DNA of 64,000 nucleotides from a bacterium (lineage in GTDB: Bacteria > Krumholzibacteriota > Krumholzibacteriia > LZORAL124-64-63). Made by a program: the position numbers and the translations under genes. A model generated the notes under the pieces. It saw only the letters and a program-made list of their open reading frames with translations, was not told where the DNA came from and did no database searches. Shown one piece after another: positions 23,149 to 38,763 of the stretch (position 1 is its first letter; each line of letters opens with the position of its first letter). The stretch is taken from NCBI GenBank assembly GCA_016706845.1, contig JADJIV010000020.1:3671-67670 (forward strand), in the 5' to 3' direction.

Positions 23149-24236
<1,088 letters not shown>

Positions 24237-24239
24237 GCC

Positions 24240-25748
24240 GCCGTTCGGTCAGCTGACGCCGCACCCTGTCGTCGAGATCCTCCCACCCGCCGGCGGTCTG
24301 CGGCTCCCCGCGATCGTCGTCGTCGGGGCCGCCCGCGCGGTTCCACACCGCGGCCGCGTCCAGCAGTTCCTGCAGGCGCTGCGGCTGTTCCGCGCTCAGG
24401 TCGTGCAGCTCCCGGGGATCGTCGGTGAGATGGTAGAGCGCCAGCGGCGCCAGGGGGCGGCGTCGGGCGATGAGCTTCCACGGCCCGGTGCGCACGCCGA
24501 CCAGGTCCGGGCCGTAGGCGATGTCCTCCGACAGCAGGGTCCTCTGCGCTGCGGAATTCCCGGCGTCGTCGGGGGGCTGGGCCCGGCCGATCAGGGACGC
24601 CGGCGCGTTGGCGGGCAGCGGCAGCGGCGGCTGGCCCAGCCAGGCGGCGGCCGTCGGCGCCAGGTCGCAGAGCGAGACCGGACGGTCCCGGACGACGCCG
24701 GCCGGGACGCCGGGGCCCCGCGCCAGCCAGGGCACGTGCAGCAGCTCCTGGAACTGGGTGTGGCCGTGGCCGATGGCGCGCAGGTCGCGCGGGTCGTGGT
24801 CCCACCGAGGCGCGCCGCTTCGGCGTGCTCCAGGAATTCTTCGCCGTGATCCGACCAGATCATCACCAGGGTGTTCGTCGCGAGACCCCAGTCCTCGAGC
24901 CGGTCCAGGATCGTTCCCAGCGATTCGTCGACGTGACGGACCGACGCGGCGTAGAGGGCCCTCTTGGCGGCCAGGGCCAGGGCGGCCGGACCGTCCAGCG
25001 GCAGGGAGACCCGCCCGAGGTGCGGCACGCCGGCCCGCTCGTCGCCCCAGCGCGCCAGCGCCCGCAGCTGCGCGTCGCCGTAGCCGCTCGCGCCCGCGGC
25101 TTCGAGCAGCGGCGCGCAGAGCCGCCGCGGCGGCATGGTCGGTTCGTGCGCGTCGTTGAACAGGACGAAGGCGCAGAAGGGCCGGTCGGCCCGGCGCCGG
25201 ATCCAGTCCAGGGCGAGGTCGGCGAGGTCGGGCGCGGCGTGGTTGCGGTAGATCCGCTCCTGGAAGCTCTCCGCCAGGCCGAAGCCCACGAAGGGGTTGG
25301 AGAAGATGGCGCCGGTGCGGTAGCCGCGGCCGGCCAGGTGGCCGGCCAGCGTGGCCGCGCCGTCCCGCAGGCGCGCGGGGGCCTGCTGCGCCATGTTGCG
25401 CGGGCCGCCGCGCATCCCGGCGCCGTGCAGGCAGGGCATCAGGCCGGTGAACGCGCTGGCGAACGAGGGCAGCGTCCAGGGGGCCGGCGCGTTCGCGTCG
25501 GCGAAGCGCAGGCCGTCGCGGGCCACGGCGTCCAGGGCGGGGGTCAACGGTCCCGTCGCGGCGACGGCGCCGGCGTGGTCGGCGCGCAGGGTGTCCACCG
25601 CGAGCAGCAGCAGGTTGGGCGGCCCTTCGCGGCGGGGCGCGGCGGACGGCGGCGACACGGTCCGACGCAGGCAGGCCGCGAGGCGGTCGCGGCTCGCGGA
25701 CAGGCGCCGTCGGCGCGTCATGGGCAGGAAAGGGTCGTTGTGGTTCAT
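24240..25748 (-). CDS. sulfatase-like hydrolase/transferase (alkaline phosphatase superfamily), one frame change, 3' end uncertain
   Basis: LLLLAVDTLRADH metal site and WTLPSFAS nucleophile region (Thr rather than Cys/Ser-x-P-x-R). Frame change near 24803. The C-terminus decays into the G/C block. Confidence 0.7.
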
Positions 25749-25801: not shown

Positions 25802-26260
25802 ATGGACCTGCGCGCGCACATCCCCGAAGGCTGCCTGCTGCCGAGACTGGCCTGCTCGAGCCAGGAAGAGGCCGTCGCCATGCTCGCCACGGCCGTGGCC
25901 CGCGCCGTCGGCCTGCCCGACGACCGGGCGCTGCGGCAGGAGATCCTCGCGCGCGAGGCCGTCGGGGACACCAACGTCGGCCTGGGCGTCGCCATTCCCC
26001 ACATCCGCACCCGGCTGGTCGGCAGGCCCCTGCTCGCGGTCGCCACGCTGGCCGGGCCCCTGCCCCGCGAGGGTCACGAGCCTCCGGTGGACGTCCTGCT
26101 GCTGATCGTGGGCCCCCAGCAGGACCCGCGCGCGATGCTGCGGCTCCTGGCCCGCCTGGTGCGGCAGGTCAAGGTCCCCGGCTTCCTCGACGACCTGCGG
26201 CGGGCCGCGACGCCCGCCGAATTGATCGCGGCCTTTCCCCGCGAGGAGCCGGCGGCCTGA
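25802..26260 (+). CDS. PTS EIIA type-2 domain protein (PtsN-like paralogue)
   Basis: 152-aa ORF with the active-site region GLGVAIPH. Confidence 0.75.
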   Translation: MDLRAHIPEGCLLPRLACSSQEEAVAMLATAVARAVGLPDDRALRQEILAREAVGDTNVGLGVAIPHIRTRLVGRPLLAVATLAGPLPREGHEPPVDVLLLIVGPQQDPRAMLRLLARLVRQVKVPGFLDDLRRAATPAELIAAFPREEPAA

Positions 26261-26380: not shown

Positions 26381-29300
26381 ATGACCAGCCAATCCAGGAT
26401 CCCCCGCCGCGGTGCATGGATCGCCATCGTGGCCGCGACGGTCGCCTGCGCCGCGACCGTCCATGCCGCCGCCGACCATCTGCTGATCAGCGAGGTCCTC
26501 GTCAAGGAGCGGCCGGGCGTCACGTCCTACGGCAGCGAGTACGTCGAGATCACCAACGCGGGCGCCGCGGCGGCCAGCCTCGCGCAGGTCTACCTGACCG
26601 ATGCGGGCAACAGCCTCAACGCGACGACCTTCTACTACAACATCGTCACGGGCGGAAGCGCCGGCGGCGGCGGCACCTCGGGCGATTTCCACGCCCGCTT
26701 CCCCGCGGGCGCGACGCTGGCTCCGGGCGCGTCGGTGGTGGTGGCGCTGCGCGGCAGCGCGGCCTTCCAGACCTCGCACGGCCGGCTGCCCGACTACGAG
26801 CTGTTCGAGGACGGCATCGCGCCCGACGCCGTGCCCGAGCTGGTCGAAGCCTTCCCCGGCAGCATCGGCTTCGGCCTGGGCAACGGCACGGCCAACACGG
26901 TGCCCACGGGCGGCTGGCTCGACGACCTCTCCGAGACCCTGGTGATGTACCGGTGGGACGGCGCCTCCGACCTGGTGGCCGACCTGGACTACCTGACCTG
27001 GGGGACGAGCACCTCGCTGCGCATCAACAAGACCGGCGTGACGGTCGACGGGCCCGACGCCGACAGCGTCGCGAGCGCCTATCTGGCCGACACCGCCGCG
27101 GGTTCGCAGCAGGCGATCACCACAATCCACGTCTACGGCGACTGCTTCCAGCGGTTCAGCACCGACGAGGGCACCGAGACCGCCACCGGCGGCAACGGCC
27201 TGACCGGGCACGACGAGACCAGCGAGAACCTGACGGCGACCTGGAGCGTGACCGCCGACCAGGACCCGACCTCGACCGGGACCGCGCCGGTCGCGACGCC
27301 CCTGATCACCGCGGCCGAGACCTCGCCCGCGACGCCCTACAACACCCTGCCGGTGACCGTCTCGGCGACGGTCCTGTCCCCGGCCGGCAACGCGGCGAAC
27401 GCGGCGGCCCTGCACTGGCGCACCAACGCCGGCTGGACCGAGACGCCCGCCGCGGCCGCGGGCAACGTCTGGAGCGCGCAGATCCCCGCCCTGCCGGCCG
27501 GCACGGTCGTGCAGTGGTACGTGACCGCCGCCGGGCCTCGCCGGCGGCCCGAGCGCGCTGCCCCACGGCGCGCCGCTCTACGTACGCGCCTATACCGTGC
27601 AGCAGGCGCCCGATCCGGGCGACAGCCCGCCGCACCTGCTGCTGACCGAGGTCTGCGTGCAGGGCAGCGATCACGAGTTCATCGAGATCTACAACCCGAC
27701 CGACGAGGCCGTGGAACTCGACAACTACTACGTCACCGACGCGGTCTACAACACCCAGGGCTACTGGCTGCTGCCGGCGGGCAACCCCTCCTCCGGCACC
27801 ATCGGCGGCGGCACCTTCACGGACTTCCAGGCCCGTTTCCCGGCCGGCGCGACCATCGAGCCGGGCGAGGCGCTGACGCTGTCGCTGGCCGGCAGCGAGA
27901 AGTTCCAGACGGTCTGGGGCGCGGCGCCCGACTTCGAGATCCGCGAGGACGGCGCCTCGGCGGACGCGGTCCCGAACATGCGCGAGGTCTTCCCGGGCAG
28001 CCTGCAGGGCGACGAGACCGGCGCCTGGGCGACGTTGACCAACACCGCCGAGATCGTCGTGCTCTACTACTGGAACGGCTCCAGCAACCTGGTCACCGAC
28101 ATCGACATGTTCATGTGGGGTTCGAGCACCAGCGCCCGCGTGGACAAGACGGGCGTCACGGTCAACGGCTCGACCTACGCCGCGGACACGCCCGTGGCCT
28201 CGCAGGACCAGTTCATGCTGGCCCACGACATCCTGGGCAGCTTCCAGCGGCTCGATCCGGGGGAGGGCACCGAGACCGAGACCGGCGGCAACGGCCCCCT
28301 GGGCCACAACGAGACCAGCGAGAACGTCAGCGGCACCTGGAACGCCGCCGACGGCACGCCCGGCGTCTACGAGGTGGTCGAACTGGCCGTCACCTCGGCG
28401 ACGCTCGCGCCCCAGCACCCGCAGCCGGGCGAAGAGGCCGTGGTGACCGCCGCGGTGACCGGCACGGCCGCGGTGACCGGAGTGTCCCTGCGCTACTCCC
28501 TGGACGGGGGCGCGTTCACGGACGTCGCCTGCACCGACAACGGCAACGGCACCTGGAGCGGCACGATCCCCGCTCAGGCCGAGGGCGTCGAGGTGGCCTG
28601 GTACGTGACGGCCGCGGGCGCGGGCGGCGCGTCGGCGGTCTGGCCGGAGGGGGGCGCCGCCGAGGCGCCGTCCTACACGGTCGAGACGCTCGTCCCCGGC
28701 TACGGCCTGGCCAAGCTGCTGATGACCAAGGTCTGCACGCTCGGCACCGCCGCGGAGTTCGTGGAGATCTGCAACCCGAACGCCTTCGACGTGCCGCTGC
28801 GCAACTTCTACGTGACCGACGCGGTGTACTACGAGAGCCAGGCCTACTGGAACCTGCCGGCGGGCACGCCGTCGCGCGCCACGCTCGGCGGCGGCGACTT
28901 CACCGACTTCCTGGCGAAGTTCCCCGACGACGCGGTGCTGGCGGCCGGCGACACGATCACCGTTTCGATCGGCGGCAGCCAGAGCTACCTCTCCGCCTGG
29001 GGCGTGATGCCCTACTACGAGCTGTTCGAGGACGACGACTACGAGGACTCGGTCGACGACCTGCAGGAGGTGTTCCCGGGCAGCATCAACGGCGTCACCG
29101 TGCCCACGCTGTCCAACCTCTCGGACACCGGCACCTACATCAACGGCGAAATCGTGGCCCTGTTCTTCTGGGACGGCGTCAGCGACCTCGTGACCGACAT
29201 CGACGTCTTCCTCTGGGGCGAAGGCAACTCGTACACGGTCGTCAAGACCGGCATCACCATCGGCACCAGCACCTACGCCGCCGAGGCCGGCTATCCCGAC

Positions 29301-29819
29301 AAGTTCATGACCGAGCACGCCAACGGCGAGGCCTACGTCCGCCTCGACGCGACCGAGGGCGCCCAGGTTCAGACCGGCGGCAACGGCTTCGAGGGCGCCG
29401 ACGAGACCAGCGAGAACCTGTCGACCACCTGGGCCGTCCAGGTCGTGACCCCGGTGGCGCCCCCGATGCCCGAGGGCTCCGGCGAGGTGAGTCTGGTCGT
29501 GCCGGCGCAGACCTTCCTGGCGTCGCGCGGCGAGACCTTCCGCATCACGTTCACGGCGTCGCCCGGGGCGGAGACGGTCCTGCGCATCATCGACCTGAAC
29601 GGTCGCCTGGTGCGCCACCTCTACGACTCGCGCTTCGACGGCGACGCTTCCATCGTGCCCGACACGCCGTCGATCAGGGTGTGGGACGGACGCAACGAGA
29701 CCTACGAGCTGGCCCGGGCCGGGATGTACGTCGTCCACCTCCAGGTGACCGACCCCAGGACAGGCAAGAGGATCGAAAAGACCGCACCGGCCGTGGTGTC
29801 CACGCGCCTGAGCAACTAG
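26381..29819 (+). CDS. secreted protein of about 1146 aa with three lamin-tail-domain (LTD) modules and a FlgD-Ig/T9SS-type C-terminal domain (one frame change near 27541)
   Basis: Signal peptide. Three paralogous modules begin LLISEVLV…EYVEITNAG, LLLTEVCVQGSDHEFIEIYNPTDEAVELDNYYVTD and LLMTKVCTLGTAAEFVEICNPNAFDVPLRNFYVTD, each with a GGNG…ETSENL motif. C-terminal Ig-like domain ETFRITFTA…LRIIDLNGRLVRHL…GMYVVHLQV. Confidence 0.75.
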
Positions 29820-29834: not shown

Positions 29835-30722
29835 ATGATCCGCAGCGCAACGATCACCGTCGCCCTCGTGCTCGGGCTGGCCGCGTCCACGGCGCAGGCG
29901 GCCTTCGAGAACGTCGACATCAGCCCGCGGGCGCGGGCCATGGGCGGCGCCGCCGTGGCGGTCGCCGACGACGCCTTCGCGCCCTTCTTCAACCCGGCCG
30001 GGATGGCGGGGCAGAAGCGCCCCGTCCTGGGCAACTCCTACGTGAAGCCCTACGGCCTGAGCTTCAACGAGCAGATGTACTTCGGCGGCGTGGCGCCGCT
30101 GTCGGCCCGCCTGGGCGCGCTCGGCTTCGGCTACCGCCGCTTCGCCGTGACGTACCAGGACGTCGACCTGACGACCGAGAGCACGTTCACGCTGGCCCAC
30201 GGCCTGACGCTGTACGAGGACCTCCACTCGACGATCAGGTTCGGCACGGCGCTGAACCTCTACGATCTGGAGTACGCCGAGACCGTCGGCGGCGTCGACC
30301 CCGGCCACGCCAGCGTCGTGGGCGCGGACGTCGGCCTGCAGGTCATCCTGCACGAGCGCACCCGCCTGGGCGTGATGGTCCGCAACCTGAACAACCCCCA
30401 GATCGGCCTCGACAACGAGGAGCTCCAGCAGCAGCTGACCGGCGGCATCTCCTACGTGCCGTACGACGGGGTCGTGACCGCCTTCGAGGTGGGCAACTCC
30501 CTCGACGGCCAGACCCGCTACCGCGGCGGCGTCGAGTTCGCCGCCCTCGGGGCGCTGAGCCTGCGCGGCGGCGTGGCCACCAACCCCTCGCTGGTGACCG
30601 GCGGCTTCGGCTACGGCTACGGCGGGATCACGGTCGACTACGGCTTCTCGACGGGCGGCGGGGTGCTGGCCCCCAGCCACCAGTTCGGGATGACCTTCGC
30701 CTGGGGCGGTGAGGCGCCGTGA
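29835..30722 (+). CDS. outer-membrane beta-barrel protein, PorV/PorQ-like
   Basis: Signal peptide …STAQA/AF. N-terminal motif SPRARAMGGAAVAVADDAFAPFFNPAGMAG. Alternating beta-strand pattern. Confidence 0.6.
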   Translation: MIRSATITVALVLGLAASTAQAAFENVDISPRARAMGGAAVAVADDAFAPFFNPAGMAGQKRPVLGNSYVKPYGLSFNEQMYFGGVAPLSARLGALGFGYRRFAVTYQDVDLTTESTFTLAHGLTLYEDLHSTIRFGTALNLYDLEYAETVGGVDPGHASVVGADVGLQVILHERTRLGVMVRNLNNPQIGLDNEELQQQLTGGISYVPYDGVVTAFEVGNSLDGQTRYRGGVEFAALGALSLRGGVATNPSLVTGGFGYGYGGITVDYGFSTGGGVLAPSHQFGMTFAWGGEAP

Positions 30723-33283
30723 GGAACACGATCGCAGCGGTGTGGATGGCGGCGCTGATGCTGGCCGCCGTTCCCGCCGCGCAAGCCTCGTCGGCGTCCG
30801 CCGGCAAGCTCGACCTCAACCAGGCCACGCTGGAGCAGATCCGCGGCCTGCCGGTGAGCGAGGAGCTGGCCCGGGCGATCTACGACCACCGGACCTACGT
30901 GAGCTACTTCGAGAACGTCTACGACCTCATGGAGGTCGCGGGCATGACGCCGGCCGACCTGGCCGCGCTCAAGCCCCTGGTGATGACCCTGCCGCCAGCG
31001 CCCACGGACGCCGGCATGGCCCGCCTGGCCGCCTCCTACGAGCAGGTCAGCGGCTTCCTGAGCCAGGAAGGCGCGAGCGAGGGCCTGGTCGACGAGTACC
31101 TCGACCTGATCCGCGACCCCGTCGACATCAACGGCCTGGACCTGTTCGACCTCATGTCGTTCCAGAACGTGTCGCCGGTGGACGCCAAGGCGATCCTGCG
31201 CGCGCGGCAGCGGCTGGGCGCCTTCGCCGACGACCGCCAGCTGCGGCGCAGCGACGGCCTGAGCTACTTCGCCTTCCGCAACATCCGCGACTTCGTCGTC
31301 TACGGGGCGCCGGAAAGCGGCGGGGGCAGCAAGGTCCACGGCAACTACCAGCTGCGCTGGTACGACACCCCCTACGTGCTCGACGACAGCGACATCGCCG
31401 GCGCGGGCGGCCTGACCTCCGCCGACGAGATCACGGCCGGCACGCTGCTGACCGAGGGGAACGCCCACCTGACCCAGAAGCTGACCCTGAACCTCGGCGA
31501 CGGCTTCCGGGCCGGCGCGCTGACGCACCGCGGACTGGGCGAGGACTCCTGGCGCGAGACGATGAAGGGCTACTTCGGCGTCGACGACCGGCGCTTCGGG
31601 GACCTGCGCCTCAAGCGCCTCTACTTCGGCAACTACCGGGTCGCCTTCGGCCAGGGCCTGATCATGGACAACACGGACTTCATGATGAGCCGCAAGACCG
31701 GCTTCGGCTGGAACAAGCGGCCCATCGGCGTGCGCGGCGACCTCAGCCGCAGCAGCGAGTTCGCCCTGACCGGCCTGGCCGCCGAGGCCAGCTACGGCCG
31801 CCTGCACGGCACGATGTTCCTGTCCTGGGACCGCAAGGACGGCATCCTGAACCCGGACGGGACGGTCAACCAGTACATCGTGATGAAGCCGCGGCCGACC
31901 GACGACTGGCTCGGCGACCACCTGGCCTTCGAGGCCGGGCGCTCCTACGCCGTCGGCGCGCTCAAGGACACCCCGACGCTCCTGAAGCGCGACGCCTTCC
32001 GCGAGGACATCGTCGGCGGCAACCTGAAGTTCATGCTCGACGACGCCTCCTACGTGGGCGTGACGGCCTACGAGGCCAAGTACGACCGGGCCTTCGACGC
32101 CGACCCGTCCACCCTGGTCAGCTATTACAGCCTGGTGGACCGCGACCTGCTGGAAGCCCGCGACAGCGAACTGTGGTCGGGCTACACGAGCGTCGAGGAG
32201 GACGCGACGGCGGGCACCCGCACCGAGCACAAGTTCCGCCGCGTCTACGGCGCCGAGTTCCAGACGGTGTTCGACAACGTTTCGCTACAGGGCGAGTACG
32301 GCGTGCTGCAGGACCCGAAGGCCGGCTGGTTCCACGGGAACAGCCCCGACGCCCTGGTCCTGAACGCCTTCGCCCAGTGGGACGACCTGAACCTGCTGGC
32401 GCTGTACCGCGACTACGACCTGGGCTTCGACAACCCCTACAACCGGGCCTTCTCGAACGACAACCGCTACGAGCAGACCCTGCTGGACTCGCCGTTCCGC
32501 CTCAACGACGACCTCTACTCCTGGCTGGCGGTCAACACGCCGCAGCCGAAGCCGGAGCAGGGCGTCTTCCTGTCCACGCGCTACCGCATCAGCCGCACGC
32601 TGATCCTCAACGGCCTGGAGTACGACCAGTGGCAGCGCAAGTCCGACAACGCGGACCTGCAGCGCTACACGGTGCGCCTGGAGTACCAGCCCACTTTCAA
32701 CCTGCGCTTCCGCCTGCGCCACCGCTTCAGCAGCCGCAGCGAGACCAATCCCGACGACGTGCGCTGGTTCCGCTCCTGGGAGTCGCGGTTCGAGATGATC
32801 ACGCTGCTGAGCAACATGAACCGGCTGCGCTTCATGTACATGACCAGCAACGTGATGTTCCCCCCGCGGGCCCGCCTCAGCGGCACCCCCGACGGGGGCA
32901 CGACGCCCTACGAGGACGACGGCATCCCGGGCGTCGGCACCGCCGGCATGCCGGCCCACGCGTTCCAGGCGATGTACGAGCACCGCCTGTCGCCGGGCGT
33001 CTCGCTGAGCCTCAGCACCGAGATCTACAACGGCTTCGTCTGGAACTTCGAGGGCAACGAGTTCGTGGTCGTCGACGGCCGGGGTTTCCGCAACTGGGCC
33101 AGTATCGAGAGCCGCGTATCGGACCGGCTGTTCTTCCAGCTGAAGGCGACGCGGGACCACAACCTCCCGCGGACCTACCTCGACGTGCGCGCCTACCAGG
33201 ACGCGTACGGCGCCGACATCGAGAGCAGCTACGCGCCGCGGGACTGGACGACGTTCCGCATGCAGCTCGACTACACCTTCTGA
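30719..33283 (+). CDS. outer-membrane protein: N-terminal ComEA-type helix-hairpin-helix repeats fused to a large beta-barrel
   Basis: GTG start in a GTGA overlap. Signal peptide. HhH motifs LDLNQATLEQIRGLPVSEELARAIYDHR and DLMSFQNVSPVDAKAILRARQRLG. About 650 aa of strand-like sequence ending …RMQLDYTF. Confidence 0.65.
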   Translation: MRNTIAAVWMAALMLAAVPAAQASSASAGKLDLNQATLEQIRGLPVSEELARAIYDHRTYVSYFENVYDLMEVAGMTPADLAALKPLVMTLPPAPTDAGMARLAASYEQVSGFLSQEGASEGLVDEYLDLIRDPVDINGLDLFDLMSFQNVSPVDAKAILRARQRLGAFADDRQLRRSDGLSYFAFRNIRDFVVYGAPESGGGSKVHGNYQLRWYDTPYVLDDSDIAGAGGLTSADEITAGTLLTEGNAHLTQKLTLNLGDGFRAGALTHRGLGEDSWRETMKGYFGVDDRRFGDLRLKRLYFGNYRVAFGQGLIMDNTDFMMSRKTGFGWNKRPIGVRGDLSRSSEFALTGLAAEASYGRLHGTMFLSWDRKDGILNPDGTVNQYIVMKPRPTDDWLGDHLAFEAGRSYAVGALKDTPTLLKRDAFREDIVGGNLKFMLDDASYVGVTAYEAKYDRAFDADPSTLVSYYSLVDRDLLEARDSELWSGYTSVEEDATAGTRTEHKFRRVYGAEFQTVFDNVSLQGEYGVLQDPKAGWFHGNSPDALVLNAFAQWDDLNLLALYRDYDLGFDNPYNRAFSNDNRYEQTLLDSPFRLNDDLYSWLAVNTPQPKPEQGVFLSTRYRISRTLILNGLEYDQWQRKSDNADLQRYTVRLEYQPTFNLRFRLRHRFSSRSETNPDDVRWFRSWESRFEMITLLSNMNRLRFMYMTSNVMFPPRARLSGTPDGGTTPYEDDGIPGVGTAGMPAHAFQAMYEHRLSPGVSLSLSTEIYNGFVWNFEGNEFVVVDGRGFRNWASIESRVSDRLFFQLKATRDHNLPRTYLDVRAYQDAYGADIESSYAPRDWTTFRMQLDYTF

Positions 33284-33299
33284 CCGGGAGATCGAGACG

Positions 33300-34589
33300 A
33301 TGATGCTCACGACCAGGAATCACAGCGCGATCGCGGCGGCGGCCGTGCTGCTCGCGCTGCTGTCGCTCGCCTCGCCGCGGCCGGCCGGCGCCGGCCAGGC
33401 GCTGAACGCCGCCTACGGCGACGTCGCGAACTTCCGGCACCCGGAGATCGAGGCCATGTCCGGCACCGGCGCGGCGCTGTTCCGCGGCGGCTTCTCCGCC
33501 GTGCTGAACCCCGCCATGCTCGGGGACGCCGCCGGCTGGCGCCTGGACGCGGCCGGCTCGCTGGCCCAGGACCACGAGGACCGCTTCCAACCCCTCTGGG
33601 ACAGCTTCGGCAGCTACATCACCGACACGGCGATCGCCAGCAACCGCAGCCACGACTTCGACACGGGCTTCGCCCTGTCCGGCCGCGCCCTGCCGCGGCT
33701 CGGCGTCGGGGCCGCCCTGACCACCCGCTACGACTTCGGCTACGAGTTCCGCGAGGAGGTCCGCGACCCCAGCACCACCGCCGACCCCTACGACCAGATC
33801 CTCGAGGAGCGCTCCGTCACCGGCGGCGGCAGCCTGCGCGACCTCAGCCTGGGGACGGCCTGGGAGCCCGGCCCGGGCGTCTCGCTGGGCGCCACGGTCC
33901 ACTACGTCTTCGGGACCCGCACCCTGGACTTCGACCGGCGCGACGTGCAGGTCCCGGCCGACAGCTACCTGGTCTCCGAGTCGCACGACGCCGACGGCAT
34001 GAACGCCACCCTGGGCGTGCGCGCGTGCGCGGGCGAGCGCTTCGTGCTGGGCGCGGCCTGGGACACGCCCCTGAAGATCGAGGGCGACTGGACCACGACC
34101 ACCACGCTGGGCGCCGCCGCCCCGACGGCAGCGGTCGAGGGGGTCACCGTGCAGTACCCCGGCCGCCTGCGGGCCGGTCTCGCCTACTACCCCCGCTCCG
34201 AGCCCCGCACCGTCTTCGCCGCCGACGTCGTCTACACCGAGTGGAGCGAGCTGGAGGACAGCCGCGACGCGGCCGCCGGCGCCGCCCTGGAGAACACGAT
34301 GGACGTGCAGATCGGCGTGCAGCACACCTTCTACAACGGCATGCCGCTGCGCTTCGGCTTCCGCCACCTGGACAGCTACGCCGACCGCGAGGCCGGCACG
34401 GCCAGCTTCAGCGCGGGCGTGGGCTTCCCCTACGCGGCCGGCATGTTCTCCGTCTCGGCGGAGTTGGGCAAGCTGGGCAGCCGCCAGGAGCACTGGTATT
34501 CCTATCCAGACGGGTACGCCGTGGCGCCGACGTCGCGCGTGGAGGACAACCGGTTCCGCGTGGGCGCGGGCCTGACCTACGCCTTCTAG
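33300..34589 (+). CDS. outer-membrane beta-barrel protein (PorV/FadL-like)
   Basis: Signal peptide. Motif MSGTGAALFRGGFSAVLNPAML. C-terminal beta-signal …RVGAGLTYAF. Confidence 0.55.
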   Translation: MMLTTRNHSAIAAAAVLLALLSLASPRPAGAGQALNAAYGDVANFRHPEIEAMSGTGAALFRGGFSAVLNPAMLGDAAGWRLDAAGSLAQDHEDRFQPLWDSFGSYITDTAIASNRSHDFDTGFALSGRALPRLGVGAALTTRYDFGYEFREEVRDPSTTADPYDQILEERSVTGGGSLRDLSLGTAWEPGPGVSLGATVHYVFGTRTLDFDRRDVQVPADSYLVSESHDADGMNATLGVRACAGERFVLGAAWDTPLKIEGDWTTTTTLGAAAPTAAVEGVTVQYPGRLRAGLAYYPRSEPRTVFAADVVYTEWSELEDSRDAAAGAALENTMDVQIGVQHTFYNGMPLRFGFRHLDSYADREAGTASFSAGVGFPYAAGMFSVSAELGKLGSRQEHWYSYPDGYAVAPTSRVEDNRFRVGAGLTYAF

Positions 34590-34618: not shown

Positions 34619-36364
34619 ATGAGCATCAGCGCCCGTCGACTGCGCCCCGCAGCCGCGGCCCTGGCCCTGGCCTTCGTCCTGCTCGCCGCCGCCGGCTCTC
34701 CCGGCGGGGCCGGGACCGCCGACGCGCAGCAGGGCCCCGTCCGGCTGCACCTGCTCTGGACGAACGACGTCCACGGCCACATCGCGCCGGAGCCGGCGCG
34801 ATTCATGAACCCGTCGTTCCCGCCGCCGCTGGGCGGCGGCGCGTCGCTGGCGAACTACCTCGCCGGAGTCCGCGAAGAGGCCGCCGCCGCGGGCGAGGAC
34901 GTCCTGGTGGTCGACGTGGGCGATTTCTTCCAGGGCACGCCCGTGGGCTCCAAGACCAGGGGCGACGCCGTCATGGCGTACTTCGAGCAGCTCCGCTACG
35001 ACGTGATCGTGCCGGGCAACCACGACTTCGACATGGGCCGCGACAACACCGAGCGCCTGGCCAACGGCACCCGCATCCCCTTCGTCTGCGCCAACCTGCG
35101 CGACGCCGCGGACGGCGAGATCGTCGACTGGTGCGTGCCCACGCTCATGCTCGAGCGGGCCGGCCTGAAGATCGGCGTCATCGGCATCATCACCACCGGC
35201 ACCGAGCACATGTCCTTCCCGGCGAACATCGAGGGCCTGATCTTCGACCCCATGGTGCCCGTCATCGAGACCTGGCGCGACCGGCTGCGGGCCGACGGCG
35301 CCGACCTCATCTTCCTGCTGATCCACGAAGGCCTGCCCTTCGACCCGCTGGAGGGCTGGCGGCGCATCGTCGGCGGCGGCGAAGCCGAAACCGGCCAGTC
35401 GGAGTCCCAGGGCGGGGCGTACGGCACGGTGACCGGCGGCGCCCTGAACCTCATGGAGATCGTCAACGCGGTCGAGGGCATCGACGTGGCGGTCGGCGGG
35501 CACACGCACCGCGGCTACGAGCAGCCCTGGATCGACCCCATGACCCACACGATGTGCTTCGAGAGCTTCGGCAACGGGTCGAGCGTGGGCCACGCCATCC
35601 TGAAGGTCGACCCCGTCACGCGCACGCTGCTGGGCTACGAGAGCCCGCACGACCGCGGCGTCCTGATCACGCTCTTCGAGGACGAGCTGTGGCCCGACCC
35701 GGCGATGCGCCGCGTCCTGCAGCCCTACCTCGCGAAGACCGACGCGGAGATGGGCAAGGTCGTCGGCAGCGCGGCGGTCAACCTCACGCGCGGCGACCCC
35801 GGCGCCTCCCTGATGGGCAACCTGGTCACCGACGCGATGCGCGAGTACTTCGACGCCGACTTCTCGTTCCAGAACCTCGGCGGCCTGCGCGCCGACGTCC
35901 CGGCCGGCAACATCACGGCGCGCGACGTCTTCAGCGTGCTGCCCTTCGGCAACGAGCTCGTCGTGGTGCAGATGCCGGGCTCCCTGATCCGGACCCTGGT
36001 CGAGCGCAAGGTCGCCGGCGACTCCGGCGGCATCTGCGTCTCGGGCCTCCGCATGCGCTACAACAAGCAGCGCCCCGACGGCGACCGGGTCTGCGAGCTG
36101 GAGATCGCCGGCGCGCCGCTGGACCCCGAGCGCATGTACCGCGTGGTCACCACCACCTTCCTCATGGAAGGCAACAGCGGCCTGGACTTCCTGACCACCG
36201 TGCCGGCGCAGGACATCGAGCTGACCCAGATCACGATCGACGCCGCCTTCGAGCAGTACCTGGAGCGCCACAACCCCGTGCGGCCCCGCGTGGACGACCG
36301 CTGGGTCGAGGACCCCGCCGGCGTCCAGGCCTCCTACCTGGCCAGGCCCCCCGCGGCGGACTGA
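34619..36364 (+). CDS. secreted bifunctional metallophosphatase / 5'-nucleotidase (UshA family)
   Basis: Signal peptide with RR. Calcineurin-like motifs NDVHGH, GDFFQG, GNHDFD and GGHTH, plus a C-terminal 5'-nucleotidase substrate-binding domain. Confidence 0.9.
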   Translation: MSISARRLRPAAAALALAFVLLAAAGSPGGAGTADAQQGPVRLHLLWTNDVHGHIAPEPARFMNPSFPPPLGGGASLANYLAGVREEAAAAGEDVLVVDVGDFFQGTPVGSKTRGDAVMAYFEQLRYDVIVPGNHDFDMGRDNTERLANGTRIPFVCANLRDAADGEIVDWCVPTLMLERAGLKIGVIGIITTGTEHMSFPANIEGLIFDPMVPVIETWRDRLRADGADLIFLLIHEGLPFDPLEGWRRIVGGGEAETGQSESQGGAYGTVTGGALNLMEIVNAVEGIDVAVGGHTHRGYEQPWIDPMTHTMCFESFGNGSSVGHAILKVDPVTRTLLGYESPHDRGVLITLFEDELWPDPAMRRVLQPYLAKTDAEMGKVVGSAAVNLTRGDPGASLMGNLVTDAMREYFDADFSFQNLGGLRADVPAGNITARDVFSVLPFGNELVVVQMPGSLIRTLVERKVAGDSGGICVSGLRMRYNKQRPDGDRVCELEIAGAPLDPERMYRVVTTTFLMEGNSGLDFLTTVPAQDIELTQITIDAAFEQYLERHNPVRPRVDDRWVEDPAGVQASYLARPPAAD

Positions 36365-36502
36365 ATCCCGCCCGGCGATTCCGCCTCAAGCCCGTCCGCC
36401 GCCTACCGATGAAGGTGCGGAGGACGGGCTTCCGCATTTCCGCCCGCCGCCACGATGACCGACGGGGATCCGGCCCGCCCGGACCAACCGAGGAGACGCT
36501 GC

Positions 36503-37744
36503 GTGATCGAGCTGAAGACGGGTGTGGTCAACGAGCAGCTGCGTCGCTTTCGTCTGCGCATGAACCGCATGGTCGTGGGGCAGCCCGCCGCCACGGACCG
36601 GATCGCGGACTGCTTCAGCCGCCTGATCGCCGGGATCCACGATCCCGAGCGGCCGCTGCTGACGATGATGTTCCTGGGGCCGACCGGCGTCGGCAAGACC
36701 GAGACGGTGCGCTGCCTGGCCGAGTCGCTGTTCGGCGACCGCCGGGCCTTCACCCGGATCAACTGCCAGGAGTTCTCGGCCCACTACAACATCTCCAAGC
36801 TGCTCGGCTCGCCGCCGGGCTACGTGGGCGGCGAGATCCGGCCGCTGCTGGCGCAGGAGAATCTCGACAAGCACCACCTCAAGGCCCTGGAAAAGCGCTC
36901 GGGCATGATCTGCGAGGACGGCGGCCGGCTGGCCGACATGTACCCGCCCGAGTCGCCGCGCCGCCTGTCGATCGTGCTGTTCGACGAGATCGAGAAGGCC
37001 CACCCCAAGATGTGGAACACCCTGCTGGGGATCCTCGAGGACGGGCACCTGGTGCTGGCCAACAACGAGGAAGTGGACTTCACCGGCTCGATCATCGTGC
37101 TGACCTCGAACGTGGGCAGCCAGGCGATGAACGAGCGCCTCAGCCGCAGCGGCATCGGCTTCCGCGCCGCCGAAGACGACGCGGGCCTGGACGGCGACCT
37201 CGAGGCCGCCGTCACGCGCGAGGCGAAGAAGATCTTCCCGATGGAGTTCCTGAACCGCTTCGACGAGCAGATCACCTACCACACGCTCAAGCGCGAGCAC
37301 CTCTTCGAGATCCTCGACAACCAGATCTCCCAGGTGCACCACCGCGCCCTGGGCAGCGCCGAGCCCTTCCTGCTGGAGGTCACCCGCCGCGCCAAGGAGC
37401 GCCTGGTCGAGGAGGGCACCGACCCCGAGTACGGCGCCCGCCCCCTGAAGCGCGTGGTGGAGAAGCGGATCGTGACGCCCGTGTCGCACTACATCTGCAG
37501 CGACCAGATCCGCCGCGGCGACCTCGTCATGATCGACCACGACGGCGACGACTACGTGTTCATGAAGGAACCCGGCATCGACTGGGAGCGCGACGAGCAG
37601 GCCGGGCGGGTCACCGCCGCCGGCAAGTGGGCGCGCACGGACCTGGGCGTGCGGGACGACGGGGGCGAGAAGAAGAAGATGGTCGAGGAGGCCGGGCACG
37701 CCGCGGCGCCCGCCGAGGCCCTGACCGGCGCCGTCATCGACTAG
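36503..37744 (+). CDS. single-module Clp/Hsp100 D2-like AAA+ ATPase
   Basis: GTG 36503 after GAGGAG. Walker A GPTGVGKT, Walker B IVLFDEIEKA, sensor-2 GARPLKR. No N-domain or D1 ring. Confidence 0.75.
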   Translation: MIELKTGVVNEQLRRFRLRMNRMVVGQPAATDRIADCFSRLIAGIHDPERPLLTMMFLGPTGVGKTETVRCLAESLFGDRRAFTRINCQEFSAHYNISKLLGSPPGYVGGEIRPLLAQENLDKHHLKALEKRSGMICEDGGRLADMYPPESPRRLSIVLFDEIEKAHPKMWNTLLGILEDGHLVLANNEEVDFTGSIIVLTSNVGSQAMNERLSRSGIGFRAAEDDAGLDGDLEAAVTREAKKIFPMEFLNRFDEQITYHTLKREHLFEILDNQISQVHHRALGSAEPFLLEVTRRAKERLVEEGTDPEYGARPLKRVVEKRIVTPVSHYICSDQIRRGDLVMIDHDGDDYVFMKEPGIDWERDEQAGRVTAAGKWARTDLGVRDDGGEKKKMVEEAGHAAAPAEALTGAVID

Positions 37745-37762: not shown

Positions 37763-37795
37763 GAACGGCCGCGCCGATCGACGGCGCGGCCGTTC
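37763..37795. terminator. bidirectional hairpin terminator
   Basis: 14-bp perfect stem GAACGGCCGCGCCG/CGGCGCGGCCGTTC with a 5-nt loop, followed by GTATTTT. Lies between convergent genes. Confidence 0.7.
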
Positions 37796-37823: not shown

Positions 37824-38165
37824 TCAGGGCTGGAACAGGATCCGGCCGCAGCTCTCGCAGGACATCACGCGGTTCACGTTCGTCACCGACGTGAACGCCG
37901 TGGGCACGTTGGCGAAGCACCCCGTGCAGTGGCCGTCCCAGACCGGGACCACGGGGTTCTCGAAGCGGGTCTTGAGCCGCAGGTAGTAGCTGCGGTGGCG
38001 CGGTTCGATCTGCTCGAGCAGGCCGGCGATGTCGCGCTGGATCTTCTCGACGCTCATGGGGAAGCCCATGGCCTCGAGCGCCTTCGCCTTGCCTTCGTCC
38101 TGGGCGTCCCGCAGCTGCAGTTCCAGGTTCTGGATCGAGACCAGCAGAGCCAGCTGTCGGTTCAT
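37824..38165 (-). CDS. C4-type zinc-ribbon / coiled-coil protein (DUF164-like, short form)
   Basis: 113 aa with paired CxxC motifs, CTGC…CESCGRIL. ATGA overlap with ptsN. Confidence 0.6.
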   Translation of the reverse strand: MNRQLALLVSIQNLELQLRDAQDEGKAKALEAMGFPMSVEKIQRDIAGLLEQIEPRHRSYYLRLKTRFENPVVPVWDGHCTGCFANVPTAFTSVTNVNRVMSCESCGRILFQP

Positions 38166-38680
38166 CCCTGTCCCTCCGTCAAGACCAGGCAGAATTCGGC
38201 GTAGTCGTCGGCTTTCAGCGCGGCGTCGCGCAGGGCGGCGTCCTGCATCTTGTCGATCAGGACGGCGAGCGAGCGGATGTACTGGTTGCCCGTATCCTGG
38301 GGCGGGGCGATCAGCATGAAGAACAGGTGGGTCGGGCCGCCGTCCATCGAGTCGAAGTCCACGCCCGCGCGCGAGCGCGCCACGACGATGATCAGGTTCT
38401 GCGCCGCGAGCGTGCGTCCGTGCGGGAAGGCCACGCCCGGGCCGACGGCGGTGCTGCCCTGGGCCTCGCGGCTCTTGAGCATCTCCAGGATCGTTTCCTT
38501 GTTGGTGATCGGGGAACCGGCGAGCAGGGCGTCGGCCATTTCGGCGAGGACGCCTGTCTTGTCCTTGGCCTGCAACTCCCCGATGAAGCGTGTCCCGGAG
38601 GTGAGTTGCAGGACGTCCTTGATGTCCATGGAGACCGCCTTGTTCTGCGCGCTGTTTCCCTGCATCATTGATCCCGGCAA
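38162..38680 (-). CDS. ptsN: PTS EIIA-Ntr nitrogen regulatory protein
   Basis: EIIA type-2 domain with GPGVAFPHG. The start is ambiguous (ATG at 38680, 38668 or 38629). Confidence 0.8.
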   Translation of the reverse strand: MPGSMMQGNSAQNKAVSMDIKDVLQLTSGTRFIGELQAKDKTGVLAEMADALLAGSPITNKETILEMLKSREAQGSTAVGPGVAFPHGRTLAAQNLIIVVARSRAGVDFDSMDGGPTHLFFMLIAPPQDTGNQYIRSLAVLIDKMQDAALRDAALKADDYAEFCLVLTEGQG

Positions 38681-38763
38681 ACCTAACCAATAGAATGTTG
38701 TTCCTCAAGGTGCAAATAGGTCCGCGTTACGCCGGGAGGCGGCCGGACCGGGAAAGGCGGGGC

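What the first reader, a model, noticed from the sequence alone, without database searches (positions are those of the whole stretch)
30719..33283. ComEA-like helix-hairpin-helix domain fused to an outer-membrane beta-barrel of about 650 residues
After a signal peptide come two HhH motifs: LDLNQATLEQIRGLPVSEELARAIYDHR and NVSPVDAKAILRARQRLG. The rest of the protein has alternating strand-like sequence and ends in the aromatic beta-signal QLDYTF. In ComEA, HhH modules act as periplasmic DNA receptors. Fusing such a module to a barrel would place DNA binding at the outer membrane, either as a receptor or as part of a conduit.
Basis: partly seen in the sequence, partly recalled or inferred. Interest (0 to 1): 0.6.

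Follow-up and report, generated by a model that had tools for sequence, protein, structure and literature searches.

The report
ComEA-like domains on an outer-membrane barrel
This gene joins two ComEA-type helix-hairpin-helix modules to a predicted 24-strand outer-membrane barrel, and in several uncultured phyla it sits in a conserved operon with surface proteins and nucleotide-degrading enzymes, so it is probably the outer-membrane gate of an undescribed system for scavenging environmental DNA or RNA.

Summary
ORF 30719-33283(+) encodes 854 aa: a signal peptide, two HHH_3 modules (Pfam E 1.3e-17), then about 24 beta-strands ending in QLDYTF. The N-domain model superposes on ComEA at 1.1-1.2 A.

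The modules are not canonical. None of the four hairpins keeps G-h-G (PVSE, GMT, NVS, GLS). The N-domain is acidic (net -9). The genome has a separate canonical ComEA and a ComEC.

The barrel has no close solved relative and no Pfam or NCBIfam model. Its inferred lumen is net basic in all 26 aligned family members, with an R/K ladder on strand 17.

The gene is single-copy and accessory (32 of 81 genomes sampled in the phylum). It sits in a cluster: CTD cargo (LTD or OB-fold), PorV-like barrel, HhH-barrel, FadL-like barrel, phosphoesterase. The cluster holds across the fetched loci down to 37% identity. Three of five more distant loci (27-31%) keep the theme with other enzymes: acid phosphatase, EEP nucleases, PHP.

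Best reading (about 0.5): the outer-membrane gate of a nucleic-acid scavenging locus. It is analogous to, but unrelated to, the TonB-dependent ddbABCDEF system of Bacteroides. Whether the HhH modules bind DNA is open.

The parts
26381..29819 (+). Cargo gene: secreted protein with three LTD (lamin-tail) modules and a C-terminal FlgD-Ig-like sorting domain. It is read in two frames in this assembly because of one extra base near 27531-27538.
   Evidence: Pfam LTD 5.4e-15 (C part) and 7.9e-8 (N part). The same C-terminal domain occurs on about 140 ORFs of the genome, 128 of them at the extreme C-terminus. A SprA homologue is present. The frameshift is absent from four close relatives and from independent metagenome contigs.
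29835..30722 (+). PorV/PorQ-like (FadL-fold) outer-membrane barrel, 295 aa. Its stop overlaps the start of the HhH-barrel gene.
   Evidence: NCBIfam PorV_fam 3.1e-12, below the cut-off. Found directly upstream of the HhH-barrel in every fetched locus with enough flank. GTGA overlap.
30719..30787 (+). Signal peptide (residues 1-23, ...AQA|SS).
   Evidence: Read directly from the sequence; no predictor was run.
30800..30979 (+). HhH module 1 (residues 28-87). Hairpins LP-VSEE and AGMTP. Net charge -4.
   Evidence: Pfam HHH_3, residues 28-87 matching profile 3-63/65. Aligned to ComEA and EEPD1 with a one-residue gap at the first glycine. Charge.
30989..31117 (+). Acidic helical linker (residues 91-133, net -6).
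   Evidence: Helices 95-114 and 121-132 in the full model, at low to moderate confidence. Charge.
31118..31306 (+). HhH module 2 (residues 134-196). Hairpins QNVSP and DGLSY. Net charge +1 here, 0 to +5 in most relatives. This is the better conserved module.
   Evidence: Second HHH_3 stretch. hhalign to the genome's own ComEA, probability 86%. Conservation; charge.
31331..33283 (+). Beta-barrel of about 24 strands (residues 205-854) with a C-terminal beta-signal ...QLDYTF.
   Evidence: AF2 DSSP strands, pTM 0.71. Foldseek hits only to large outer-membrane barrels, TM 0.25-0.29. Alternating hydrophobicity in the strands. C-terminus.
31649..31765 (+). Conserved long loop L3 (residues 311-349, GQGLIMDNTDF...RKTGFGWNKRPIGVRGDLSRS).
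   Evidence: 54% of its columns are at least 90% conserved among 42 homologues, against 12-15% in the most variable loops, L1 and L5.
32417..32554 (+). Conserved long loop L7 (residues 567-612, YDLGFDNPYNRAFSN..RY...QPKPEQG). It was the signature used to fish relatives.
   Evidence: 50% of its columns are at least 90% conserved. The pattern [FY]DNPYxR[SGA]F[SA] found 460 confirmed relatives among the GTDB species genomes.
32702..32737 (+). Strand 17, LRFRLRHRFSSR: an inferred lumen-facing arginine/lysine ladder (R663, R665, R667, R669, R673).
   Evidence: Hydrophobic alternation on the AF2 strands. These positions are R/K in 17-23 of the 26 family members.
33300..34589 (+). Second FadL-fold barrel, 429 aa (weakly BamG-like).
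   Evidence: NCBIfam BamG 2.6e-17 over 357 residues, far below the cut-off. Found directly downstream of the HhH-barrel in the fetched loci; a gene of 415-483 aa holds the same place in L090, L091 and L093.
34619..36364 (+). Secreted, probably periplasmic, 5'-nucleotidase / UshA-YfkN-type metallophosphoesterase.
   Evidence: Pfam 5_nucleotid_C 8.2e-37 and Metallophos 1.6e-9. NCBIfam nucleotidase families, all below equivalog cut-offs. ATG at 34619 and an N-terminal signal-like sequence without a lipobox Cys. No CTD.
36455..37744 (+). Single-ring ClpB-D2-type AAA+ ATPase. It is linked to the cluster only within Krumholzibacteria-type genomes, and its membership of the system is uncertain.
   Evidence: Pfam AAA_2 2.1e-34 and ClpB_D2-small 6.9e-18. 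tblastn finds it next to the cluster only in the closer loci. The only terminator-like site on the + strand follows it, at 37780.

Best explanation
The protein is the outer-membrane gate of a conserved nucleic-acid scavenging locus found in Krumholzibacteria-, Eisenbacteria- and Zixibacteria-type bacteria. Shown: it is a signal-peptide protein with two ComEA-fold HhH modules followed by a barrel of about 24 strands. It is co-oriented and tightly packed with, and in related populations co-transcribed with, a T9SS-type cargo (three LTD modules), a PorV-like barrel, a FadL-like barrel and a secreted 5'-nucleotidase. Inferred: the LTD (elsewhere OB-fold) cargo is exported by the type IX system and held at the surface by the PorV-like barrel, where it captures extracellular DNA or RNA. 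Fragments made by extracellular nucleases pass through the arginine/lysine-lined lumen of the 24-strand barrel. These nucleases are encoded in the cluster in some lineages and elsewhere in this genome. The conserved polar loops L3 and L7 probably fold into the lumen as the selectivity or gating element. The tandem HhH modules hang at the periplasmic mouth and take over the incoming polyanion, or hand it to partners. Module 2, which is basic and highly conserved, is the likelier contact. The 5'-nucleotidase then strips phosphate, so that nucleosides and phosphate can cross the inner membrane. No TonB box, plug, pilus or secretin is involved.
For: Architecture. Conserved cluster: tblastn finds LTD cargo, PorV-like barrel, HhH-barrel, 429-aa barrel and 5'-nucleotidase in the same order in the fetched loci that have enough flank, down to 37% identity, in MAGs labelled Krumholzibacteria, Eisenbacteria, Zixibacteria and Gemmatimonadota. 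Non-homologous replacement at 27-31% identity: L090 carries class-B acid phosphatase, a UshA-like+EEP fusion and an EEP+LTD nuclease. L091 carries an OB-fold+CTD cargo, 5'-nucleotidase, PHP and an LTD protein. L093 carries 5'-nucleotidase and two LTD proteins, with DHH nearby. The inferred lumen is net +3 to +18 in all 26 family members although the whole barrel is acidic in most, and the R/K ladder on strand 17 is conserved. The cargo's C-terminal domain is shared by about 140 ORFs, and SprA is present. Operon: 4-nt overlap and gaps of 15-29 nt, with no + strand terminator-like site before 37780. Metatranscriptome contigs at 95-99% identity span the gene junctions. The gene is accessory, not housekeeping: 32 of 81 genomes in the phylum. 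LTD is a known companion of extracellular nucleases and of 'DNA-degradation loci' (PMC6085458, PMC8289736). A PUL-like DNA-utilisation locus exists in Bacteroides (10.1101/2025.03.18.642099).
Against: There is no experiment on any member. The four HhH hairpins lack G-h-G, and the ComEA lysine after the second hairpin is replaced. The whole N-domain is acidic, pI about 4.5. The Krumholzibacteria-type cluster itself contains no recognisable nuclease. LTD has no proven DNA-binding role in bacteria, and ExeM works almost normally without it in vivo (PMC6085458). Two distant loci lack the theme or are uninformative: in L089 the barrel is followed by a GGDEF protein, and L092 is a 5.5-kb contig with a peptidase M1 gene downstream and no upstream flank. 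The lumen assignment rests on an AF2 model (pLDDT 73) and a hydrophobicity rule. I could not read coordinates, so whether the HhH domain is periplasmic or inside the pore is not settled. Metatranscriptomes can contain DNA.
Confidence: 0.5

Rival explanations
1. The locus is the same, but the HhH modules do not touch nucleic acid. The degenerate, acidic N-domain is a plug or gate that sits in or under the basic pore. Alternatively it is a docking platform for the neighbouring barrels or the nucleotidase. The barrel is a channel selective for nucleotides or phosphate esters.
For: All four G-h-G hairpins are lost, the post-hairpin lysine is replaced, and net charge is -9 for the N-domain against about +15 for the inferred lumen wall. 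After ComEA, the nearest structural neighbours are HhH folds with no known DNA-binding role: PsbU and the pseudopilin GspK/XcpX (the role statement is my own knowledge). The linker to strand 1 is only about 10 residues.
Against: Module 2 is very strongly conserved and usually basic (0 to +5), with invariant Arg residues. A variant (P0207) carries about 430 aa of TPR in front of the HhH modules, which is hard to fit inside a pore and suggests a periplasmic domain. The best sequence and structure matches are still ComEA and EEPD1.
Confidence: 0.25
2. This is the first reader's strong version: a transformation-type outer-membrane DNA translocon. Intact DNA is pulled in by the tethered ComEA-like modules acting as a ratchet, and is passed to ComEA and ComEC for uptake as genetic material.
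For: ComEA fold at 1.1-1.2 A rmsd. The lumen is basic. The genome has ComEA and ComEC. Bacteroidota use a barrel plus a periplasmic HhH protein for transformation in Riemerella (PMC8459023), and that system is related to a DNA-utilisation locus (10.1101/2025.03.18.642099).
Against: The hairpins are degenerate and the domain is acidic. The constant partners are catabolic enzymes (5'-nucleotidase, acid phosphatase, EEP nucleases, PHP), not recombination or competence genes. ComEA and ComEC lie on other contigs.
Confidence: 0.1
3. The three barrels are a dedicated type IX attachment or display platform for the LTD or OB-fold cargo, analogous to PorV/PorQ/PorU/PorZ. Nothing is transported through the large barrel. 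The nucleotidase link reflects only what the displayed cargo does.
For: The cargo has a T9SS-type C-terminal domain. PorV-family and FadL-family barrels flank the gene. SprA is present. The BamG precedent shows that FadL-fold barrels can serve as anchors for surface proteins (PMC12611786).
Against: About 140 other CTD proteins in the genome do without such a platform. A 24-strand barrel with two highly conserved polar loops and a conserved basic lumen suggests a substrate path. The secreted nucleotidase has no CTD.
Confidence: 0.1
4. The barrel is an exporter. It secretes DNA or another polyanion, such as a matrix polymer, outward, as the TPR-barrel exporters BcsC, PgaA and PelB do.
For: One relative has a TPR-HhH-barrel architecture like the TPR-porin exporters (the comparison is from my own knowledge). 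The lumen is basic.
Against: No synthase or inner-membrane export genes are in the cluster. The partners are degradative phosphoesterases.
Confidence: 0.05

Closest known systems
ComEA (G. stearothermophilus/B. subtilis 8dss, 8dfk; T. thermophilus ComEA-related 2duy; Vibrio cholerae periplasmic ComEA)
   Same: It has the same HHH_3 fold, with two HhH motifs per module and no connector helix. Sequence profile hits are 2.9e-9 and 5.5e-8, and structural rmsd is 1.1-1.2 A at 32-36% identity. Both are exported across the inner membrane.
   Different: The module is duplicated, tethered to an outer-membrane barrel, acidic and without G-h-G hairpins. The post-hairpin lysine is replaced. It scores far below NCBIfam's ComEA cut-offs (33 vs 152; 25 vs 53). 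The genome has a separate canonical ComEA.
ddbABCDEF DNA-utilisation locus of Bacteroides thetaiotaomicron, and the related Riemerella anatipestifer transformation genes (barrel RA0C_RS04915, surface protein RA0C_RS04920, periplasmic HhH protein RA0C_RS02645)
   Same: The logic matches, and both occur in the FCB group of bacteria. There are surface nucleic-acid-binding proteins and nucleases, an outer-membrane barrel, periplasmic phosphoesterases and, in Riemerella, a periplasmic HhH protein (10.1101/2025.03.18.642099, PMC8459023).
   Different: DdbC is a TonB-dependent SusC-like transporter with a DUF5689 lipoprotein lid. Here the barrel has about 24 strands and no Plug, TonB_dep_Rec or CarboxypepD_reg match. 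The HhH domain is fused to the barrel, the surface partner is T9SS cargo rather than a lipoprotein, and two FadL-fold barrels accompany it. No homology was detected.
OprP/OprO phosphate- and pyrophosphate-specific porins (arginine ladder)
   Same: A ladder of basic residues along the lumen wall of a barrel, as expected for a channel for phosphorylated anions (the OprP comparison is from my own knowledge).
   Different: OprP is a 16-strand trimeric porin without extra domains. No sequence or fold relationship was found.
Large outer-membrane barrels: chaperone-usher FimD/PapC (24 strands), Deinococcus SlpA (30 strands), MtrB, TonB-dependent receptors
   Same: These are the best Foldseek matches, with similar barrel size. 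The usher strand number equals the count made here.
   Different: TM-scores are only 0.25-0.29 at 8-11% identity. There is no usher, plug or SLH domain and no Pfam match. This is a resemblance in size class only.
EEPD1 (human endonuclease/exonuclease/phosphatase domain-containing 1, 9yi2)
   Same: It is the best sequence match for the N-domain (profile E 1.4e-17). It likewise has two tandem HHH_3 modules, attached to an EEP nuclease domain. EEP nucleases occur in the distant loci.
   Different: It is a eukaryotic soluble protein whose HhH modules are joined to a nuclease, not to a membrane barrel.
PorV/PorQ (T9SS) and FadL/BamG barrels
   Same: The two flanking genes match these families weakly, consistent with 14-strand FadL-fold barrels that hold surface proteins.
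   Different: Both score far below the family cut-offs (47 vs 90; 63 vs 250). This concerns the neighbours, not the HhH-barrel itself.

Membership tests
ComEA (DNA receptor of natural transformation) | HHH_3-type (HhH)2 fold | tested here: met
   Pfam PF12836 at 64 bits against a cut-off of 27, two stretches. Foldseek rmsd 1.1-1.2 A to 8dss and 2duy.
ComEA (DNA receptor of natural transformation) | G-h-G hairpins (LPGIGxxxA ... VxGIGxK) | tested here: not met
   The hairpins read LP-VSEE (one residue shorter), AGMTP, QNVSP and DGLSY. The genome's own ComEA reads LPGVGAVLA and VKGIGPKLS.
ComEA (DNA receptor of natural transformation) | Score above the curated family thresholds (TIGR01259, TIGR00426) | tested here: not met
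   33.1 bits against 152.35, and 25.2 against 53.1.
ComEA (DNA receptor of natural transformation) | Basic DNA-contact surface, including the lysine after the second hairpin | tested here: not met
   Module 1 is -4, the linker -6 and the whole N-domain -9. The lysine position is Ala in module 1 and Phe/Tyr/Trp in module 2. Module 2 alone is weakly basic, 0 to +5 (PMC9747964 for the contact residues).
ComEA (DNA receptor of natural transformation) | Binds DNA and is required for DNA uptake | not testable with these tools
   Needs EMSA or anisotropy and genetics.
TonB-dependent transporter / SusC-DdbC type | N-terminal plug with a TonB box and a 22-strand barrel (Pfam Plug, TonB_dep_Rec) | tested here: not met
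   No Pfam or NCBIfam match apart from HHH_3. The N-domain is all-helical HhH. About 24 strands. TM-score to TonB-dependent receptors 0.22-0.24.
Chaperone-usher outer-membrane usher | Usher domain (PF00577) with a mid-barrel plug and periplasmic N and C domains | tested here: not met
   No Pfam match. Foldseek TM-score 0.25-0.29 at about 10% identity. No chaperone or pilin genes nearby.
Outer-membrane beta-barrel protein (general) | Signal peptide, an even number of amphipathic strands with short periplasmic turns and long loops, and a C-terminal aromatic beta-signal | tested here: met
   24 strands, turns of 2-5 residues, C-terminal ...QLDYTF. All top Foldseek hits are outer-membrane barrels.
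PUL-like nucleic-acid utilisation locus (functional class, e.g. ddbABCDEF) | Outer-membrane transporter co-encoded with surface binding proteins and secreted nucleases or nucleotidases | tested here: met
   Conserved synteny in the fetched loci, and enzyme replacement in the distant loci L090, L091 and L093. The Krumholzibacteria-type cluster has a nucleotidase but no nuclease.
PUL-like nucleic-acid utilisation locus (functional class, e.g. ddbABCDEF) | Locus required for depletion or use of exogenous DNA | not testable with these tools
   No cultured carrier. Needs SIP, metatranscriptomics or heterologous reconstitution.
T9SS cargo (applies to the neighbouring LTD protein) | C-terminal sorting domain shared by many secreted proteins, in a genome with the SprA translocon | tested here: met
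   An iterated HMM finds the domain on about 140 ORFs, 128 of them at the C-terminus. SprA family match of 221-227 bits against a cut-off of 200. It resembles FlgD_ig/CHU_C rather than the classical Por_Secre_tail.

The most novel reading that the evidence does not exclude
The family is a third, self-contained route for moving nucleic acid across a diderm outer membrane, independent of type IV pili and secretins and of TonB. An arginine-lined 24-strand pore conducts DNA or RNA strands. Its own tethered, diverged ComEA-fold modules act as the periplasmic ratchet or hand-over device. It works in a complex with two FadL-fold barrels and T9SS-displayed LTD or OB-fold capture proteins.
Probability: 0.17. 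Interest if true: 0.85.

Novelty: new variant of a known kind. Interest (0 to 1): 0.64.

Why it matters
Extracellular DNA and RNA are major pools of phosphorus, nitrogen and carbon in sediments, soils and wastewater biofilms. How diderm bacteria get polyanionic nucleic-acid fragments across the outer membrane is known for only a few systems: pilus and secretin in Proteobacteria, and the TonB-dependent DdbCD recently described in Bacteroides.

This family has at least 460 species-level genomes, at least 100 clusters at 50% identity, no Pfam or NCBIfam barrel model and no characterised member. It would add a transporter class unrelated to either known route. It would also link the type IX secretion system to nutrient capture in uncultured FCB-related phyla.

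It offers a direct test of whether an HhH domain that has lost its G-h-G hairpins still binds nucleic acid. It also gives a genomic marker for 'DNA foragers' in metagenomes. If the HhH modules prove to be only a plug or a dock, the find is still a new barrel family with an unusual built-in domain.

Tried and rejected
1. Known barrel family. Pfam and NCBIfam give nothing beyond HHH_3. A PDB sequence profile hits only the HhH region. Foldseek gives only generic large barrels at TM 0.25-0.29. Usher, TonB-dependent receptor, LptD, SlpA and MtrB membership is rejected.

2. Housekeeping machine (BAM, Lpt or a T9SS core part). Rejected because only 32 of 81 genomes in the phylum carry it, concentrated in two families, and because SprA exists separately.

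3. Dedicated translocon for the LTD cargo. Weakened because the same C-terminal domain is on about 140 ORFs while the barrel is single-copy.

4. Pseudogenised operon. The LTD gene is split by a frameshift in this assembly. Four near-identical MAGs and independent metagenome contigs, including one at least 99% identical, lack the extra base. I treat it as an assembly error or a private mutation.

5. The divergent sulfatase-family gene as a nucleotide phosphodiesterase. NCBIfam points to arylsulfatase or choline-sulfatase types at sub-threshold scores, so this is unresolved and not used.

6. Promoter or Pho-box search. The sigma-70 scan found nothing, as expected for this phylum. No Pho-box model was available.

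7. Position of the HhH domain relative to the pore. Model coordinates and PAE are not exposed by the tools, so this was only inferred, from the short linker and the TPR-bearing variant.

8. Literature searches for an HhH-barrel fusion, or for a PorV/LTD/nucleotidase locus, found no description.

Full report
**1. Observation**

- Its GTG start overlaps the TGA stop of the upstream gene (GTGA), behind a GGTGAGG ribosome-binding-like site.
- The N-terminus looks like a Sec signal peptide, ...AAVPAAQA|SS. This was read by eye; no predictor was run.
- Pfam finds HHH_3 with E 1.3e-17 (64 bits, cut-off 27), in two stretches.
- The whole-genome scan places the two modules at residues 28-87 and about 134-196.
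- A profile of 26 family members hits the tandem HhH region of EEPD1 (9yi2, 1.4e-17). It also hits ComEA of Geobacillus and Bacillus (8dss 2.9e-9; 8dfk 5.5e-8) and 2duy.
- An AlphaFold2 model of the N-domain alone (37 sequences, pLDDT 77) superposes on ComEA 8dss_B at 1.1 A over 63 columns. It superposes on 2duy at 1.2 A (TM 0.76).

For the rest of the protein, the full-length model (42 homologues, pLDDT 73, pTM 0.71) gives 24 long strands between residues 207 and 852.
- Turns of 2-5 residues alternate with long loops.
- Every significant Foldseek hit is a large outer-membrane barrel.
- The protein ends FRMQLDYTF.

In detail: signal peptide, two ComEA-fold modules, and a barrel of about 650 residues with about 24 strands.

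**2. How ComEA-like are the modules?**

The fold is ComEA-like. The sequence features associated with DNA binding are not.
- The four hairpins read LP-VSEE (one residue shorter than LPGIGP), AGMTP, QNVSP and DGLSY.
- The same holds across the family down to 27% identity.
- The genome's own ComEA, on another contig, is canonical: LPGVGAVLA...VKGIGPKLS.
- hhalign puts module 2 in register with that ComEA. It shows G to N and G to S in hairpin 1, and GIGPK to GLSYF in hairpin 2.
- In G. stearothermophilus ComEA, Lys166, Lys195 and Thr196 contact DNA phosphates (PMC9747964).
- The Lys195 position is Ala in module 1 and Phe/Tyr/Trp in module 2.
- Net charge is -4 for module 1, -6 for the helical linker and +1 for module 2 (0 to +5 in most relatives). 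It is -9 for the whole N-domain, and 23 of the 26 members are net negative.
- NCBIfam's ComEA models are matched far below their cut-offs.
- After ComEA, the nearest structural neighbours include PsbU and the pseudopilin GspK/XcpX. To my knowledge these are HhH folds with no DNA-binding role.

Module 2 remains a candidate: it is highly conserved (QNVSPVDAxAI...R..G...R.LR..GLS) and mildly basic.

**3. The barrel**

No Pfam or NCBIfam model covers it, and no PDB sequence relative exists. The fold matches have TM 0.25-0.29 (SlpA, FimD/PapC, TonB-dependent receptors, MtrB). It is therefore a separate barrel family.

Two long loops are unusually conserved:
- L3, residues 311-349, GQGLxMDNTDF...RKTGFGWNKR..GDLSR.
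- L7, residues 567-612, FDNPYNRAFSN..RY.

Half of their columns are at least 90% conserved, against 12-15% in the most variable loops, L1 and L5. Such loops typically fold into the lumen; this is inference.

I assigned the more polar face of each strand as lumen-facing. On that assignment the lumen wall carries 31 R+K against 16 D+E here. It is net positive (+3 to +18) in all 26 family members, although the whole barrel is acidic in most. Strand 17 (LRFRLRHRFSSR) forms an R/K ladder that is conserved across the family. This is what one expects of a path for phosphorylated anions. The OprP arginine ladder is the textbook case (my own knowledge).

**4. Context**

The gene is the third of five tightly packed, co-oriented genes:
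- Cargo with three LTD modules, 26381-29819.
- PorV-like barrel, 29835-30722.
- HhH-barrel, 30719-33283.
- FadL/BamG-like barrel, 33300-34589.
- Secreted 5'-nucleotidase, 34619-36364.

Within Krumholzibacteria-type genomes only, a ClpB-D2-type AAA+ gene follows. The only + strand terminator-like site lies after it, at 37780.

The cargo ends in a FlgD-Ig-like domain. An iterated HMM finds that domain on about 140 ORFs of the genome, 128 of them at the extreme C-terminus. The genome also has a SprA homologue. The cargo is therefore one of many type IX substrates.

The HhH-barrel is single-copy. It is present in 32 of 81 sampled genomes of the phylum, concentrated in two families. It is an accessory function, not envelope housekeeping.

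**5. Conservation of the cluster**

- The family has 816 representative proteins at E up to 1e-3, 103 of them below 1e-30. Full-length architecture is kept down to 27% identity.
- 460 species-level genomes carry a confirmed relative.
- In the fetched loci with enough flank, tblastn finds cargo, PorV-like barrel, HhH-barrel, 429-aa barrel and 5'-nucleotidase in the same order. This includes MAGs labelled Eisenbacteria, Zixibacteria and Gemmatimonadota at 37-47% identity.

The strongest evidence comes from more distant loci, where the enzymes change but the theme does not:
- L090 (27% identity) has 868 aa / 312 aa / barrel / 483 aa. These are followed by class-B acid phosphatase (1.2e-37), a UshA-like+EEP fusion and an EEP+LTD nuclease.
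- L091 (31%) has an OB-fold+CTD cargo / 278 aa / barrel / 415 aa, then 5'-nucleotidase, a PHP phosphoesterase and an LTD protein.
- L093 (28%) has a TPR-HhH-barrel of 1251 aa / 466 aa / 5'-nucleotidase / LTD / LTD, with a DHH phosphoesterase nearby.

Two distant loci do not help. In L089 the barrel is followed by a GGDEF protein. L092 is a 5.5-kb contig with a peptidase M1 gene downstream and no upstream flank.

LTD is a known companion of extracellular nucleases (ExeM, PMC6085458) and of 'DNA-degradation loci' (PMC8289736). Its own role is unproven.

**6. Expression and integrity**

Metatranscriptome contigs from biofilm and aquifer samples, 95-99% identical, cover all five genes. They span the junctions at 29819/29835, 30719 and 33283/33300. 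This is consistent with a polycistronic transcript in related populations. DNA carry-over cannot be excluded.

The cargo gene is split into two frames in this assembly by one extra base near 27531-27538. Four near-identical MAGs and independent metagenome contigs, one at least 99% identical, lack that base. It is an assembly error or a private mutation, and the locus is best regarded as intact.

**7. Mechanism**

Most likely (about 0.5), this is the outer-membrane gate of a nucleic-acid scavenging locus.
- T9SS-displayed LTD or OB-fold proteins, held by the PorV-like barrel, capture the polymer.
- Fragments made by extracellular nucleases cross the basic 24-strand pore. Those nucleases are encoded in the cluster in some lineages. 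This genome has secreted-looking EEP genes elsewhere.
- The tethered HhH modules at the periplasmic mouth receive the fragments or recruit partners.
- The secreted 5'-nucleotidase releases nucleosides and phosphate.

What is shown: the architecture, the synteny, the enzyme replacement and the charge pattern. What is inferred: the direction of transport, the substrate, the surface display and the role of the HhH modules.

The periplasmic location of the HhH modules is inferred from three things. They precede strand 1, the linker is short, and one variant carries a large TPR domain in front of them. Coordinates and PAE were not available to me.

**8. Rivals**

- The HhH domain is an acidic plug, gate or dock with no nucleic-acid contact, while the locus function stays the same (0.25).
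- A true transformation translocon feeding ComEA and ComEC (0.10).
- A T9SS cargo-display platform with no transport (0.10).
- An exporter of a polyanion (0.05).

**9. Comparison with known systems**

- It works most like the PUL-like ddbABCDEF DNA-utilisation locus of B. thetaiotaomicron and the related Riemerella transformation genes. Those combine a barrel, a surface DNA binder and, in Riemerella, a periplasmic HhH protein. It is not a member of that group: there is no TonB box, no plug and no SusC-type barrel.
- It is not a ComEA by curated thresholds or hairpin motifs, although it shares the fold.
- I found no publication describing an HhH-barrel fusion or this locus. [quoted passage not shown]

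**10. Verdict**

This is a real and widespread but uncharacterised protein family and locus. The nucleic-acid theme is well supported by context. ComEA-style DNA binding by the HhH modules is doubtful. Earlier notes of this scan on relatives reach similar conclusions. They are not independent evidence. I checked the points I took from them: the ddb comparison, the basic lumen and the cluster.

Noticed in passing
window 27531-27538 (inside the LTD cargo gene 26381-29819): One extra base in a GC run (GCCGGGCCTCGCC against GCCGGGAC-CGCC in relatives) splits the three-LTD gene into two frames. Four near-identical MAGs and independent metagenome contigs lack it. It is probably an assembly error.
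   Followed up: yes
window 22001-24000: G+C rises to 0.84 with strong negative GC and AT skew. The adjacent sulfatase-family ORF (24591-25748, minus strand) may be cut short by it.
   Followed up: no
genome contig C2:88745-92723 (minus strand): The SprA (T9SS translocon) homologue is matched in two different open frames (1432 and 2319 aa). This suggests another indel in this assembly, or a split gene.
   Followed up: no
whole genome (G000): About 140 ORFs carry the same FlgD-Ig-like domain of about 60 aa as the LTD cargo, and 128 of them end within 25 residues after it. This appears to be the phylum's version of the T9SS C-terminal sorting signal.
   Followed up: partly
window 36455-37744: A stand-alone single-ring ClpB-D2-type AAA+ ATPase follows the nucleotidase in all Krumholzibacteria-type loci, but not in Eisenbacteria- or Zixibacteria-type ones. 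The metatranscriptome depth peak at 36608-37011 probably reflects cross-mapping of the conserved AAA core.
   Followed up: partly
L090:9080-10993: A 637-aa protein fuses an UshA-like metallophosphatase N-domain to an ExeM/NucH-like EEP nuclease domain. It lies next to an EEP+LTD nuclease and a class-B acid phosphatase, downstream of a distant HhH-barrel.
   Followed up: partly
L093:8001-11756 (P0207): A variant of the family has about 430 aa of TPR repeats in front of the HhH modules and the barrel (1251 aa). This is reminiscent of the TPR-porin exporters. It is followed by a 466-aa barrel, a 5'-nucleotidase and two LTD proteins.
   Followed up: partly
window 25802-26260 and 37824-38708: Two PTS EIIA-2 (PtsN-like) genes flank the locus. 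One lies directly upstream of the cargo gene and is syntenic in most Krumholzibacteria-type loci. It may be a nutrient-status regulator of the operon.
   Followed up: no
L003-L007 (record titles): MAGs whose protein match to this gene is 95-98% identical are labelled Latescibacterota, Gemmatimonas sp., Fibrobacter sp. or just 'bacterium'. Many Krumholzibacteria-like MAGs are labelled 'uncultured Fibrobacteraceae'. Public taxonomic labels for this group are unreliable.
   Followed up: no
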